DNA of 64,000 nt from Acidobacteriota bacterium (GTDB lineage: Bacteria; Acidobacteriota; UBA890; WLXD01). A model generated the notes under the pieces. The model did not search any database and was not told where the DNA came from. It saw nothing but the letters and a program-made list of their open reading frames with translations. This document shows, one piece after another, positions 30,000 to 33,223 of the stretch; the first letter of the stretch is position 1; every line of letters begins with the position of its first letter. The stretch lies in the NCBI GenBank assembly GCA_965205505.1, contig CBDBHB010000009.1:352001-416000 (forward strand), given 5' to 3'. The position numbers were made by a program, and so were the translations under genes.

Positions 30000-30052
30000 G
30001 CCGTAGGAAATCGAACCCCCGACCTGCGGATGTCACATCCGATGCTCCAGCG
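29997..30052 (-). pseudogene. Degenerate tRNA-like 3' half
   Basis: Minus strand GGAGCA-TCGGA-TGTGACA-TCCGC-AGGTC-GGGGG-TTCGATT-TCCTA-CGGCTC has the anticodon arm, variable loop and T-loop layout; no 5' half and a non-canonical loop. Confidence 0.35.
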
Positions 30053-30145
30053 GCCGTCGAGGGTCCAGCGTAGCTGTGAAGAAAGGAGCGGTCGCCCCGG
30101 TTCACGAGGGGGTCCTGGGAGGACGGTGGCCCTTCATAGTCCTCT

Positions 30146-30250
30146 TCATCTTTGATGGATGTCGTTGCCCTTGCCACAGGTGAGACACTCGTACTCCGGT
30201 GACTCTCCTTCGAACACGACGCGCCCCGCTAGTTGAAGAGCTTGCCAACT
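30146..30250 (-). pseudogene. 3' remnant of a small CxxC protein cut at the IS/MITE junction
   Basis: WQALQLAGRVVFEGESPEYECLTCG...*; no continuation beyond the MITE. Confidence 0.3.
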
Positions 30251-30349
30251 AGATGAGATGAGAAGGCCAACCTCCTGAACGCAGTAGCCTGACGGCTCTG
30301 CAAACGTTTCTTCAAACGTAACGGGCTCGAAGCCCAAGGAGGTTGGCCG

Positions 30350-31392
30350 ATGAGGAGTGTAACGATTGGACTGGACGTAAGCGACCGGTACAGCCGTATG
30401 TGCGTGCTCGACAGTAAGGGCAGGGTGATGGAGGAAGGGCGGGTGAGGACGAGCCCGGAGGGGCTGGCGAGGCGGTTCGGGTGCGAGGAGCCCGCTCGAG
30501 TAGTGCTGGAGGTTGGAACGCACTCGCCGTGGATGAGTGAGCAGTTGAAGCAACTGGGTCATGAGGTGCTGGTGGCTAACCCGAGGCGGCTGAAGCTGAT
30601 CTATGGCGAGCACGGACCGACCGGTTGGATGCCGAGCACCTGGCACGAGTGGGCAGAATGGACCCAAAGCTGCTTAAGACGGTGCAGCATCGAGGCAGAC
30701 AAGCGCGAGCGGATCTAGCCGTGATTCGGAGCCGAGATGCTCTGGTAAAGAGCCGCACGCAGTTGGTGAGCCATGTGCGTGGTGCGGTCAAGTCGGCCGG
30801 TTGTCGTATTCCCAGGTGCTCGACGCCGGCGTTCGCGCGCACCGCGCCAGAGCACATACCGGAGCGGCTCAAGGGAGCGCTCGAGCCGGTGCTTGAAACG
30901 ATCGCCATGCTGACGGGCAACATCCAGCAATACGAGCGTCAGATCGTGCAGCTGTGCCAGGGGCGATACCCGGAGACACAGCAGCTCCAGCAAGTGGCCG
31001 GGGGCGGAGCTCTGACCGCACTGGCGTATGTGCTGACGCTCGAGGAGCCGGAACGGTTCAATACCTCCAGAGCCGTGGGCCCGTACCTGGGACTGAGACC
31101 GAAGAAACGGCAGTCGGGGGACAAGGACCCTGCGCTACGAATAACCAAGGCGGGCGACAAAATGCTCCGACGCCTGTTGGTGGGCTCGGCGCATTACATC
31201 CTGGGCCCCTTCGGGCCCGATACTGAGCTCAGACGCTGGGGGCTCAAGCTGGCCGGACGCGGTGGTCCTCATGGCAACAAAAAGGCAGCAGTTGCTGTCG
31301 CCCGTAAGCTCGCCGTTGTGCTGCACCGACTGTGGCTGAGTGGAGACGAGTACGAACCGTTGCGCGCACCTGTAGAGGTTTCAGCAGCATGA
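30350..31392 (+). pseudogene. IS110-family DEDD transposase/recombinase, frameshifted near 30614-30616
   Basis: IGLD and VLE in frame 30350; TD.LD, YLGLRP..RQSG and AVARKL in frame 30625; the K of the usual KTD motif is lost at the shift. Confidence 0.85.
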
Positions 31393-31640
31393 ACTAACCC
31401 GCAACCAGGAGGTCGGTAGGGCGACGCGACCCAACGGTTATCGATCTGACCGCCCGGTCCGGGCGACTGCGAAGGTCACTACGAGCTTCGAGCTCGGCAG
31501 CTAGATTGCAGCGCCTCGAATCGGGACGGACCCCAGAATGCACCGGACGACCTGAATCCTCGTCCACCAGAGTGCGAATAGGAGCATGGCGTGCAGATCG
31601 ATTCTTCGCTGGGCACCACATTGCCCTTGACCGAACTAGG
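31393..31640 (+). ncRNA. Predicted seekRNA/bridge RNA of the IS1111-type element
   Basis: Two guide-bearing loops at 31462-31515 and 31559-31584 whose single-stranded parts match the target and the donor junction (see findings). RNA ends are approximate. Confidence 0.75.
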
Positions 31641-31654
31641 CCTTCTCTTAGAAG

Positions 31655-31928
31655 TGGCCTGAGTCAGAAATCCGTTGCATATTGTGGCGAGCGCGACCGA
31701 GGCGGATCCCAGGAGGCGCGACGACGGCGATGCAATAAGCATCGTCGAGGAGTGCCGACGCCGGAGGCGTCCGGTCCCGCCGCCACCCGGAAGGCTGGGC
31801 CGATATGGGGGCAATCTCGGCGTTGCGATTCGTCGACGAGGGGCGTGGCATCGCCATCCTCATCGCGCCTTGAGCTTGCCCCCATCTCGGCCCAGCAATA
31901 TGCAACGGATTTCTGACTCAGGACACTA
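31655..31928. mobile_element. MITE-like element C (IS630-like TA ends), left tip interrupted by the IS
   Basis: Right TIR 31896-31928 reverse-complements to TAGTGTCCTGAGTCAGAAATCCGTTGCATATTG; the left copy is TAG (30250-30252) plus 31655-31684, matching at 32/33. Confidence 0.85.
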
Positions 31929-31942
31929 AGAGGAGGTTCGAA

Positions 31943-33223
31943 ATGAAACGATTGTCGGTCCTGCTGGTTTCTACGTTGTTCGCCGCCACGACGGCCTTCG
32001 CTCAGGAAGGGCCCGATCCGAATCGCCCAGGTGCGAATGAGGTGATTGAGTACGACGTTCCGGACGAGGTCGATATCGACTACGAGGTACTGGACAACAT
32101 CGACACTGCGTCGTCGGAGTTCGGCGTCGTGCCGTTGCCAGCCAACGTTGGCAAGACCCTGACGGGCCTGTTCAGTAAATACACGAAACACGTCGCTCCC
32201 AACGGCAAGCCGATCCATATCCTCGGCCAGTCGCGGGTGAGCGATCTACAGATGGCCCGGGCTCGGGAAATCCTCCGATACCACCTCACGAATGCGCCTA
32301 GTACCAGGTATGGACGTGAAAAGACTGCGATCGCCAACCGCATGGGAGACGTGCGCGCGACGCTCATCTACACAGACACGCAAGCCAGGGCGTTTGCGAT
32401 GTACGACATCATCGGGGAGTCGGAACTCGCTCTCCAGGACCTGTATGCCACGGAATCTCCCGTGGAGGGCGACTACGTTTACCTCCACAACGAGGCCGAG
32501 CCGGGAGGGTTCTTCACGCGTGACGCCTCCTACGAGGAGATCATGCATCTGGTGCACGCGAAAGGCATCGAGGGGGCGCTTCCCGGGTACCACGCAGCGA
32601 TCGAGAAAGCTGAGCAGCGCGCTGTAGATGCCGGGATATACAAGTACGGGTCGCCCGCGCCCCACGAGTACATTATCAGCGGCTTCGATATCTATTTCGG
32701 CTTGTGGGACCACGATCCCCAGGGCGACGGTACCTCCTACGGTGATGAGTACCCGTACCACACACGCGCTGAGATGATGGCCGGCGACCGGCCGTTGTTC
32801 GACCTGGTCAAGGAGTTCTGGCCCGAATACCTAACCTATAACGCCTACATCGATCCCTCGTTCGAAGGGACGTTCATGATGGTTCACGACGATGCCGTCG
32901 AATACACGCACAAGTCGCGGTTTCTCGTGGAGATCACCCTGACGGGAAACAAGGACACGAACGTCTTGGGCAACGACCAGAGCAACATCTTGACGGGCAA
33001 CGAAGGCGACAATGCGTTCATCGGTGGTGCCGGAGACGACGTGATCGCGGGTGGGGCTGGAACCGATCGAGCAACCTTCGCCGGGGTAGCATCCGAGTAC
33101 CGAGTCGAGTCGATGGGATCGACTACAACAGTGACCGACACCGTGGACCGCCGTGACGGGGCGGACGAGTTAACAGGGGTCGAGATCCTCGTTTTTCGGG
33201 ACGGGGAAGTTCGGGTCGAGTAG
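31943..33223 (+). CDS. Secreted EExxH metalloprotease-like protein with RTX Ca-binding repeats
   Basis: GAGGAGG RBS; Sec signal; RDASYEEIMHLVH...HEY; GGAGDD/GGAGTD repeats. Confidence 0.75.
   Translation: MKRLSVLLVSTLFAATTAFAQEGPDPNRPGANEVIEYDVPDEVDIDYEVLDNIDTASSEFGVVPLPANVGKTLTGLFSKYTKHVAPNGKPIHILGQSRVSDLQMARAREILRYHLTNAPSTRYGREKTAIANRMGDVRATLIYTDTQARAFAMYDIIGESELALQDLYATESPVEGDYVYLHNEAEPGGFFTRDASYEEIMHLVHAKGIEGALPGYHAAIEKAEQRAVDAGIYKYGSPAPHEYIISGFDIYFGLWDHDPQGDGTSYGDEYPYHTRAEMMAGDRPLFDLVKEFWPEYLTYNAYIDPSFEGTFMMVHDDAVEYTHKSRFLVEITLTGNKDTNVLGNDQSNILTGNEGDNAFIGGAGDDVIAGGAGTDRATFAGVASEYRVESMGSTTTVTDTVDRRDGADELTGVEILVFRDGEVRVE

What the first reader, a model, noticed from the sequence alone, without database searches (positions are those of the whole stretch)
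30245..31684. RNA-guided IS1111-type element whose guide loop matches the tip of a MITE: nested parasitism readable from sequence
Seen: deleting 30253-31654 restores CCAACT-AG-TGGCCTGAGTCAGAAATCC, the intact left TIR of MITE C, so the IS sits within the first bases of that TIR. The right non-coding end has a stem (GGCG-A-CTGCGA 31462-31472 / TTGCAG-CGCC 31506-31515) enclosing AGGTCACTA (31473-31481), the hairpin CGAGCT-TCG-AGCTCG and GCAGCTAG (31497-31504). AGGUCACUA pairs 9/9 with top-strand TAGTGGCCT (one G-U), and CAGCUAG matches the left flank CAACTAG (one G-T wobble). Known: IS110/IS1111 recombinases use bridge/seek RNAs, with IS1111 encoding them in the right end, and often target repeated elements. 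Inference: a natural guide programmed against CTAGTG-type MITE/IS630-like termini, a multi-copy safe harbour, and a new guide-target pair for a programmable recombinase.
Basis: partly seen in the sequence, partly recalled or inferred. Interest (0 to 1): 0.85.

Follow-up and report, generated by a model that had tools for sequence, protein, structure and literature searches.

The report
RNA-guided IS1111 element targeting MITE tips
This is a frameshifted copy of a multi-copy IS1111-type insertion sequence whose own guide RNA directs it into the first bases of IS630-type MITE ends; it is a clean new example of a known mechanism, not a new one.

Summary
Window 30253-31654 is a 1402-bp IS1111-type element. 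Its genome holds 27 full-length and about 6 partial copies. The element splits the tip of a 273-bp IS630-type MITE. All 31 right junctions read TGGCCT (30) or TGACCT (1), and the left junctions read CTAG (one reads TTAG). The genome has 109 unoccupied CTAGTGGCCT sites.

The segment 31473-31481 pairs with top-strand TAGTGGCCT. Only the CUAG part (31501-31504) of the second segment matches every left flank.

The decisive evidence is natural reprogramming. A 69%-identical element in another genome keeps the scaffold, but its loops match its own, different target 9 of 9. Across 18 related elements, the cognate target beats all 17 non-cognate targets in 15 cases. A second, donor-matching 7-mer (31578-31584) co-varies with the element's end in 18 of 18.

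MITE tips with T instead of G at the wobble position are never occupied (0 of 87).

The window copy lacks 4 bp and has a broken transposase; 10 other copies are intact.

The mechanism (seekRNA / bridge RNA) is published. IS1111-family targeting of a MITE (IS1111 in QMITE2) and of transposon ends (IS4321/IS5075) is also published. This is therefore a new member of a known kind, of moderate interest.

The parts
30250..30252 (+). The left TA duplication of the MITE (30250-51) plus G30252, the first base of the MITE's inverted repeat. AG 30251-52 is also the core dinucleotide shared with the element's right end.
   Evidence: AG lies at both junctions in 23 of 24 loci of the family.
30253..31654 (+). 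The IS1111-type insertion sequence, 1402 bp. By the 7/3-extension convention it is 30251-31652. This copy lacks 4 bp (ACAA) after 30614.
   Evidence: 27 full-length copies at 98.6-100% identity; 15 of 27 copies carry ACAA.
30258..30268 (+). Left subterminal inverted repeat, ATGAGAAGGCC. The 7-nt left extension AGATGAG (30251-30257) precedes it.
   Evidence: the same repeat is found in relatives.
30350..30718 (+). N-terminal transposase fragment (122 aa). The true frame is lost at residue 89, just before the D92/D95 motif DKTDRLDA.
30625..31392 (+). C-terminal transposase frame (PF02371; contains GLRPKKRQSG).
31440..31602 (+). Predicted long guide RNA (bridge RNA / long seekRNA), about 163 nt. 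The closing stem is 31440-31448 with 31594-31602.
   Evidence: per-sequence folds only. The G011 relative keeps 8 of 9 pairs with different letters.
31461..31470 (+). 5' arm of the target-loop stem: GGGCG, bulged A31466, then CUGC. It pairs with 31508-31516.
   Evidence: 9 pairs, 4 of them with compensatory changes across the 18 elements.
31473..31481 (+). Top-strand guide AGGUCACUA. It pairs with TAGTGGCCT (target positions -3 to +6), with one U-G wobble at +3.
31482..31496 (+). Hairpin CGAGCU-UCG-AGCUCG between the two guide segments.
   Evidence: compensatory changes in relatives.
31498..31504 (+). Bottom-strand guide CAGCUAG. Only CUAG (31501-31504) matches all left flanks.
31508..31516 (+). 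3' arm of the target-loop stem: GCAG then CGCCU.
31540..31575 (+). Second stem-loop: GCAC 31540-43 pairs with GUGC 31572-75, enclosing the hairpin GGACGA/UCGUCC.
   Evidence: 4 predicted pairs, 3 of them identical in all 18 elements and the fourth CG in 17 and GC in 1..
31578..31584 (+). Donor-matching segment AUAGGAG. It equals the element's last bases plus the core (ATAGA-AG) with one G-T wobble.
   Evidence: it co-varies with the end sequence and the core in 18 of 18 elements.
31639..31649 (+). Right subterminal inverted repeat GGCCTTCTC(T)T. Position 31648 is T here and A in 21 of 27 copies. Then come the 3-nt extension AGA (31650-52) and the core AG (31653-54).
31655..31926 (.). The rest of the IS630-type MITE (273 bp counting G30252). 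The left repeat runs to 31684 and the right repeat is 31896-31926. The right TA is at 31927-28.
   Evidence: An autonomous IS630 relative is described.

Best explanation
This is a non-autonomous (frameshifted) copy of an active IS1111-family insertion sequence.

**The guide RNA.** The element's right non-coding end encodes a guide RNA (seekRNA / bridge RNA). In its target loop, AGGUCACUA pairs with the top strand of TAG-TGGCCT and CUAG pairs with the bottom strand of CTAG. Together they specify the 10-bp site CT-AG-TGGCCT, where AG is the crossover core that the site shares with the element's own ends. A second segment, AUAGGAG, matches the element's own right end plus the core, so the same RNA also holds the donor (inferred).

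**Why MITE tips.** The 10-bp site is exactly what IS630-type elements create when they insert at TA in CTAG: C, the duplicated TA, then the repeat tip GTGGCCT. The element therefore lands in the first bases of MITE and IS630 ends, always in one orientation.

**This copy.** It cannot make transposase, but it keeps intact ends and guide. It can therefore be moved by the 10 intact copies.

**Shown here:** the target consensus, the orientation, the loop-target co-variation and the scaffold conservation.

**Inferred from the published family mechanism:** that the RNA is made, that it binds the transposase, that the element goes through a circular intermediate, and that copies are mobilised in trans.
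For: **Family hallmarks**
- The intact transposase scores 205.5 bits against NF033542 (cut-off 140), 64.6 against PF01548 and 62.3 against PF02371.
- It is 348 aa and contains GLRPKKRQSG. The element has an 11-bp subterminal repeat with a 7-nt left and a 3-nt right extension, and a 262-nt non-coding right end against a 97-nt left end. These match the criteria in PMC11187229.

**Target**
- There are 27 distinct full-length insertion sites. The last two bases of the left flank and positions +1, +2 and +4 to +6 are invariant; position +3 is G in 26 and A in 1.
- Right junctions: 30 TGGCCT and 1 TGACCT. Left junctions: 26 CTAG, 1 TTAG, and 1 apparent TGAG caused by an extra ATGAG unit, whose true flank is CTAG.
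- There are 109 free CTAGTGGCCT sites.

**Loop order**
- The top-strand match lies 5' of the bottom-strand match and the two overlap in the target, as published for IS1111 seekRNAs.

**Natural reprogramming**
- The G011 element is 69% identical end to end and is flanked by GAGTAG | AGTCCG.
- It carries CGGACUCUA (9 of 9 to its own target) and GAGUAG in the same scaffold, with compensatory stem changes.

**Family test**
- Over 18 distinct elements, mean top-strand scores are 8.36 (cognate) against 4.40 (non-cognate). Mean bottom-strand scores are 6.28 against 3.84.
- The cognate sum beats all 17 non-cognate targets in 15 of 18 elements.

**Structure**
- The consensus structure has 13 pairs, 7 of them with compensatory changes.

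**Donor segment**
- The donor-matching segment co-varies with the right extension (GGA or AGA) and with the core (AG or AA) in 18 of 18 elements.

**Single-base discrimination**
- G-tips are 30 occupied and 109 free. T-tips are 0 occupied and 87 free (Fisher p = 2.1e-7).
- Within the GAGTCAG MITE family the figures are 6/0 against 0/22.
- The guide's U at +3 can pair with G or A but not T, and the single A-site insertion fits this.
- The one TTAG insertion has GCAG upstream, which matches the guide's GCAG-C-UAG at 7 of 8 positions.

**Conservation**
- 31462-31515 is invariant in all 27 full-length copies.
Against: - **No direct evidence that the RNA exists.** No Rfam family matched. The element is present in contigs of two RNA libraries from one study, which does not show transcription. 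No circle junction was seen. No sigma-70-like promoter was found in the linear element.
- **Weak left half.** On the left side only 4 nt, 2 of them the core, are matched consistently. Among 135 free TAGTGGCCT sites, 81% already have C at -4, so the requirement for that C is weakly shown.
- **Top-strand donor segment unsettled.** CCCA at 31532-31535 mismatches this element's TGAG at one position. CUCGUC at 31559-31564 lies inside a hairpin stem.
- **Partial family support.** Three of the 18 elements (L066, L067, L069) were equalled or beaten by one non-cognate target. L079 and L087 have weak top-strand matches.
- **Non-independent sites.** Occupied and free sites are not independent, because MITE copies and segmental duplications share flanks. 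The Fisher p overstates the case.
Confidence: 0.93

Rival explanations
1. The transposase protein itself reads CTAGTGGCCT, and the complementary RNA segments are coincidental.
For: The site is short (10 bp) and partly palindromic (CTAG, GGCC), as protein-read sites often are. No RNA was observed directly.
Against: Relatives at 43-69% protein identity insert at unrelated sequences. In each case the two loop segments at the same scaffold positions change to match. The mechanism is experimentally established for IS1111 members (PMC11187229).
Confidence: 0.02
2. Insertion is drawn to MITE ends by DNA structure (hairpin or cruciform of the inverted repeats, or transposase-bound ends) rather than by the 10-bp word.
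For: About 25 of 31 right junctions lie in MITE-type or IS630-type ends. Other family members target palindromic repeats (REP, attC) according to the literature.
Against: About 6 of 31 insertions share the 10-bp word but not the MITE sequence beyond it, for example TGGCCTAACGCC, TGGCCTCTGAGAAG and TGACCTGGGAG. Tips that differ only by G to T at +3 are never used: 0 of 87 overall, and 0 of 22 within the same MITE family.
Confidence: 0.03
3. The family is a fossil. The copies spread in the past and nothing moves now, so the guide-target match is only historical.
For: 17 of 27 full-length copies have broken genes. No circle junction was seen in contigs.
Against: Copies are 98.6-100% identical, and 10 keep a full 348-aa frame. 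The guide region is invariant. Contigs from other samples show the same element next to other flanks (loose ends). The same 4-bp deletion sits at 12 different loci, which implies spread after the break, or gene conversion.
Confidence: 0.15

Closest known systems
IS1111-family seekRNA elements (ISEc11, ISKpn4, ISPst6, ISPa11; Siddiquee et al. 2024, PMC11187229)
   Same: A DEDD transposase of 330-350 aa with the GL-P----SG motif. An 11-13-bp subterminal repeat with 7/3 extensions. A long non-coding region downstream of the gene. A guide whose top-strand match lies 5' of the bottom-strand match, with the two overlapping in the target. Natural re-direction between relatives, as in the ISEc11/ISXne4 pair.
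   Different: The target is the tip of IS630-type inverted repeats plus the TA duplication. The bottom-strand match is only 4 nt. The RNA and its activity have not been tested here.
Bridge RNA of IS621 and the IS1111-group predictions (Durrant et al. 2024, PMC11208160)
   Same: One RNA with a target-matching loop and donor-matching nucleotides, and a 2-nt core shared by donor and target. [quoted passage not shown] This fits the closing stem, the two arms and the 7-mer at 31578-31584.
   Different: The core is AG rather than IS621's CT (the CT is recalled, not checked here). The order of the strand matches is reversed relative to the IS110 group. The top-strand donor segment is not settled.
IS1111 in the QMITE2 MITE of Coxiella burnetii (Wachter et al. 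2018, PMC5896051)
   Same: An IS1111-type element that uses a MITE family as its landing site. In that study 20 of 21 copies are associated with QMITE2 (passages read).
   Different: There the site is a GTAG palindrome inside the MITE. Here it is the extreme tip of the inverted repeat together with the flanking TA.
[quoted passage not shown]
   Same: IS1111-family elements that insert into the terminal inverted repeat of another transposon. Only the title was seen, in a reference list; the paper is not held.
   Different: The host element is of a different class (Tn3 family rather than IS630/Tc1-mariner). The position within the repeat could not be compared.

Membership tests
IS1111 family (within IS110 in ISfinder) | DEDD transposase with an N-terminal RuvC-like domain and the PF02371 C-terminal domain | tested here: met
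   The intact copy scores PF01548 64.6 bits, PF02371 62.3 bits and NF033542 205.5 bits. The window copy is split: PF01548 scores 26.6 bits, below its cut-off of 29, and PF02371 scores 58.7.
IS1111 family (within IS110 in ISfinder) | Transposase of 330-350 aa with the GL-P----S(t)G motif | tested here: met
   348 aa, with GLRPKKRQSG at residues 249-258.
IS1111 family (within IS110 in ISfinder) | Subterminal inverted repeats, usually 11-13 bp, with terminal extensions of 7 bp on the left and 3 bp on the right | tested here: met
   ATGAGAAGGCC / GGCCTTCTCAT is 11 bp in 21 of 27 copies, and 9 bp plus one mismatch in the window copy. The extensions are AGATGAG and AGA when the shared AG is counted on the left.
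IS1111 family (within IS110 in ISfinder) | The long non-coding region lies downstream of the transposase gene | tested here: met
   262 nt downstream (31393-31654) against 97 nt upstream (30253-30349).
IS1111 family (within IS110 in ISfinder) | One specific target, used in one orientation | tested here: met
   All 31 right junctions have TG(G/A)CCT next to the right end.
IS1111 family (within IS110 in ISfinder) | A circular intermediate with abutted ends | tested here: inconclusive
   No joint was found in contigs of 4 runs. Contigs drop rare forms, so this says little.
seekRNA / bridge RNA | [quoted passage not shown] | tested here: met
   31473-31481 is 9 nt with one wobble. 31498-31504 has 4 nt that match in all copies. 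The cognate target is best in 15 of 18 family members.
seekRNA / bridge RNA | A conserved scaffold with guide loops that change with the target (natural reprogramming) | tested here: met
   The G011 pair. The 18-element alignment has 7 of 13 pairs with compensatory changes.
seekRNA / bridge RNA | Donor-binding nucleotides that match the element's own ends | tested here: inconclusive
   The bottom-strand-type 7-mer co-varies in 18 of 18 elements. The top-strand-type segment is unclear for this element.
seekRNA / bridge RNA | The RNA is produced, binds the transposase and is required for movement | not testable with these tools
   The only evidence is presence in contigs of RNA libraries. No Rfam model matched.
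IS630-family MITE (the target) | Terminal inverted repeats flanked by a duplicated TA, and an autonomous relative encoding an IS630 transposase | tested here: met
   Repeats of about 31 nt with TA on both sides. A 1184-bp element at G000:C9:2198454-2199637 has like ends and a transposase scoring 272.9 bits against NF033545. The TA rule is taken from PMC2170065.

The most novel reading that the evidence does not exclude
The element is a hyperparasite tuned to the junction that IS630-type transposition itself creates: C, the duplicated TA, and the repeat tip. Every new MITE or IS630 insertion would then make a fresh landing site, and each landing cuts the terminal base off the host element's end and probably immobilises it.

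On this reading the G-to-T tip variant is an escape allele in an arms race between two transposons. That variant is carried at both ends by the autonomous IS630 copy, and it is never occupied (0 of 87). The U wobble in the guide would be a way to keep two tip variants (G and A) in range.
Probability: 0.2. Interest if true: 0.6.

Novelty: new member of a known kind. Interest (0 to 1): 0.4.

Why it matters
This genome offers a well-controlled natural data set for RNA-guided recombinases. One guide has 31 used sites, 109 unused cognate sites and 87 near-cognate sites that differ by a single base and are never used.

There is also a set of 18 related elements that share one scaffold but carry different guides and targets. 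That set could help define which positions of an IS1111-type guide matter. The points it bears on are wobble tolerance at +3, a bottom-strand match as short as 4 nt, and an AG or AA core.

It also shows one transposon family living almost entirely inside the ends of another, which bears on how mobile elements limit their cost to the host. None of this changes the known mechanism.

Tried and rejected
- **Rfam.** A scan of 30000-32000 at E up to 10 gave 6 weak hits to eukaryotic or archaeal families, none relevant.
- **Genome-collection scan.** The search for related loci with the single protein found one relative only, L031 at 43% identity. I went on with the genome search.
- **Same-genus genomes.** None of the 4 searched had a match at E 1e-40, so no empty-site comparison with sister genomes was possible.
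- **Top-strand donor segment.** CUCGUC at 31559-31564 pairs with GATGAG. I set it aside because it forms the 3' arm of a hairpin. CCCA at 31532-31535 co-varies in some relatives (L062 CCUUA, L069 CUCA, L075 ACCA, L079 UCCA, read by eye, with no control), but it mismatches this element's own end. This is left open.
- **Closing stem.** It was not recovered by the alignment-based consensus. It appears only in the single-sequence folds.
- **Promoter scan.** The scan of the linear element found nothing. I did not scan the circle junction.
- **Reads.** The element lies in contigs of two RNA libraries from one study. No joints were seen, and parts without cover prove nothing.
- **Names.** The 90% cluster of the transposase has 44 members, none named. 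ISfinder could not be consulted, so I cannot say whether the element has an IS name.
- **Literature on this target.** Three searches were made: 'IS110, IS630, MITE, inserted, inverted repeat', 'IS1111, MITE' and 'IS110 family, terminal inverted repeat, inserts into, another insertion sequence'. None gave a report of an IS110/IS1111 element aimed at IS630-type ends. Subscription journals and supplements were not visible.
- **Chance words.** Two genomic words (TAGAAGTGTCCT and one TAGAAGTGGCCT) looked like junctions but are chance matches without the element upstream.

**Rows dropped**
- Of 27 related loci examined (L031, L062-L087), 5 were dropped: L063, L065, L070, L071 and L073. In these the repeat motif was missing on one side; some lie on short contigs.
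- Of the 24 loci then held (22 relatives plus the window and G011), 6 were left out of the 18-element tests. Four are extra copies (L080, L085, L082, L086). L084 is a near-duplicate of L074. L078 has a scaffold that the pattern did not fit.
Full report
**What is there.** The stretch 30253-31654 is a 1402-bp element flanked by ...CCAACTAG on the left and TGGCCTGAGTCAGAAATCC... on the right. The window's genome (5.98 Mb, 9 contigs) holds 33 BLAST segments of it. Of these, 27 are full-length at 98.6-100% identity and the rest are truncated or internally deleted copies. Joined, the flanks read CTAGTGGCCTGAGTCAG.... This is the mirror of the sequence at 31896-31926, with TA on both outer sides (30250-51 and 31927-28). 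The element therefore splits the tip of a 273-bp inverted-repeat element.

An autonomous relative of that small element lies elsewhere in the genome (G000:C9:2198454-2199637). It is 1184 bp long, has like ends, and encodes a protein scoring 272.9 bits against the IS630 transposase model NF033545. IS630-family elements insert at TA and duplicate it (PMC2170065, passages). A preference for TA within CTAG is known to me only from a title in that paper's reference list.

**The element's family.** The window copy has two overlapping reading-frame pieces. Fifteen of the 27 full-length copies carry four more bases (ACAA) after 30614, and 10 of the 27 have an unbroken 348-aa gene. That protein scores 205.5 bits against NF033542 'IS110 family RNA-guided transposase' (cut-off 140), 64.6 against PF01548 and 62.3 against PF02371. 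It contains GLRPKKRQSG. The break in the window copy falls at residue 89, just before DKTDRLDA.

The ends carry an 11-bp subterminal inverted repeat, ATGAGAAGGCC. The window copy has one mismatch in it, at 31648. If the AG shared by the left flank and the right end is counted with the left end, the terminal extensions are 7 nt and 3 nt. The long non-coding region (262 nt) lies downstream of the gene. Each of these points is a stated hallmark of the IS1111 family in Siddiquee et al. 2024 (PMC11187229; sections read).

**The target.** At the 27 distinct full-length sites, the last two bases of the left flank and right-flank positions 1, 2 and 4-6 never vary. Position +3 is G in 26 sites and A in 1. 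Position -4 is C in all but one site, once two alignment artefacts are corrected. Nothing further left is conserved. Counting every junction gives 30 TGGCCT and 1 TGACCT on the right, and 26 CTAG and 1 TTAG on the left. One further left junction has an extra ATGAG unit, and its true flank is CTAG. The site is therefore CT-AG-TGGCCT.

The genome holds 109 unoccupied copies of this 10-mer against 13.5 expected from composition. Most are ends of MITEs of the form CTAGTGGCCTGTAACAGATGATCG.... About 25 of the 31 right flanks are such ends. About 6 share only the 10-mer.

**The RNA.** An outer stem (GGGCG-A-CUGC with GCAG-CGCC) encloses an internal loop. The 5' side of the loop is AGGUCACUA (31473-31481) and the 3' side ends in CAGCUAG (31498-31504), with a small hairpin between them. 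The first segment pairs with top-strand TAGTGGCCT, with one U-G wobble. The second is identical to the top strand over CTAG, so it would pair with the bottom strand. A top-strand match lying 5' of the bottom-strand match, with the two overlapping in the target, is the arrangement reported for IS1111 seekRNAs. The region 31462-31515 is identical in all 27 full-length copies.

**The decisive test: relatives with other targets.** A genome of the same order (G011) carries an element that aligns with this one from end to end at about 69% identity. It is interrupted by another insertion. Its flanks are GGAGAGTAG | AGTCCGCGG. In the same scaffold its two loop segments read CGGACUCUA and GAGUAG. The first is the exact complement of TAGAGTCCG. 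The second equals its left flank. The stem and hairpin differ by compensatory changes.

A search of 401 genomes of the phylum found 20 with a match at E 1e-70, counting the window's own genome. One of the 20, G166, is unpublished and enters only this count. From these genomes and one MAG I could define both ends of the element in 22 of 27 loci. The core dinucleotide (AG, or AA in three loci) stands at both junctions in 23 of the 24 loci, counting the window and G011.

For 18 distinct elements I scored fixed windows: 16 nt after the 5' stem arm, and 12 nt before the 3' arm. Each was scored against its own target and against the other 17 targets. The means were 8.36 against 4.40 for the top-strand segment and 6.28 against 3.84 for the bottom-strand segment. 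In 15 of the 18 elements the cognate sum exceeded all 17 non-cognate sums. In the other three, one non-cognate target (itself a related one) equalled or beat it. RNAalifold on the 18 segments gave 13 pairs, 7 of them with compensatory changes.

**A donor-matching part.** Downstream of the target loop every relative has a near-invariant stem (GCAC with GUGC) followed by a 7-mer. The 7-mer reads AUGGAAG where the element ends in ...CATGGA plus AG, AUAGAAG where it ends in ...CATAGA plus AG, and AUAGAAA where the core is AA. The third base agrees with the first base of the right extension in 18 of 18 elements. The last base agrees with the second core base in 18 of 18. The window has AUAGGAG at 31578-31584, with one G-T wobble.

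Single-sequence folds place a closing stem (31440-31448 with 31594-31602) around both arms, so the donor-matching bases sit in a multi-loop. Durrant et al. describe this for many IS1111 orthologues (PMC11208160, section read). The alignment-based consensus did not recover the closing stem. The top-strand donor segment remains unsettled.

**A natural specificity experiment.** Many MITE tips differ from the target only at +3, the position opposite the guide's U. Tips with G are 30 occupied and 109 free. Tips with T are 0 occupied and 87 free (Fisher p = 2.1e-7, although the sites are not independent). Within the GAGTCAG MITE family all 6 G-tips are occupied and none of the 22 T-tips is. The single A-site insertion fits a U-A pair. 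The one TTAG insertion has GCAG just upstream, so it matches the guide's GCAG-C-UAG at 7 of 8 positions.

**State of this copy.** The window copy cannot make transposase. The same 4-bp deletion is found at 12 different loci, and a second, 1-bp deletion at 5. This suggests that broken copies with intact ends and guide have gone on spreading with help from intact copies. Gene conversion between copies is the alternative.

**What is not shown.** There is no direct evidence for the RNA, its ends, its binding to the protein, or a circular form. The element occurs in contigs of two RNA libraries from one study, which does not prove transcription, and no joint was seen. Rfam has no matching model.

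**Comparison and novelty.** The mechanism is that of published seekRNA / bridge RNA elements. Targeting of a MITE by IS1111 itself is in print: QMITE2 in Coxiella, 20 of 21 copies (PMC5896051, passages). Targeting of another transposon's inverted repeats by IS4321/IS5075 is also published, though I saw only the title. Three literature searches turned up no IS110/IS1111 element aimed at IS630-type ends, so the target class appears to be new. The element's transposase cluster of 44 members carries no name. I file it as a new member of a known kind, with moderate interest. Its value lies in the clean guide-target statistics and the set of naturally reprogrammed relatives.

Supplementary files of the papers were not seen. 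The target logos and IS lists in the supplements of PMC11187229 and PMC11208160 might already include a close relative.

Noticed in passing
G000:C9:2198454-2199637 (locus L088), outside the window: An autonomous IS630-family element, 1184 bp, with a 381-aa transposase (NF033545, 272.9 bits). Both of its tips read CTAGTGTCCT, the variant that the IS1111-type element never occupies.
   Followed up: partly
window 30614 and 30755; 27 full-length copies genome-wide: The same 4-bp deletion is shared by 12 copies at different loci, and a 1-bp deletion by 5 copies. Either broken lineages kept spreading (moved in trans) or gene conversion occurred between copies.
   Followed up: partly
G000:C9:1734158-1735559 right flank; G000:C8:403820-405224 right flank; G000:C9:129733-129739: Very short 'nano' elements made of two repeat tips joined back to back (about 20-35 bp, for example TGGCCTGTAGCAGATGATCTGTTACAGGCCAC). 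They still serve as landing sites.
   Followed up: no
G000:C8:5177-5196 and G000:C9:2703763-2703782: A tandem duplication of the 10-bp target (CTAGTGGCCT twice) at a MITE end, in a segment present twice in the genome. Each copy lies within 300 bp of a copy of the IS. It could be a footprint of aberrant recombination.
   Followed up: no
G011:C1:3908607-3911298 (between loci L038 and L033): The 69%-identical relative is itself interrupted by an insertion of about 2.7 kb inside its transposase gene. The first 38 nt of its right flank recur twice more in that genome at 89% identity, so its target may also be a small repeat.
   Followed up: partly
run X17, loose end behind window 31660: In a contig from another sample the element's right end is followed by TGGCCT + CTAACAGAAGTTCGCATACAAAATCGGGCG. 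This resembles the end of the autonomous IS630 copy, which suggests insertion into a full-length IS630 end there.
   Followed up: no
loci L074, L084, L087 (genomes G217 and G262): Relatives whose core dinucleotide is AA instead of AG at both junctions. The donor-matching 7-mer changes in step (AUAGAAA).
   Followed up: partly
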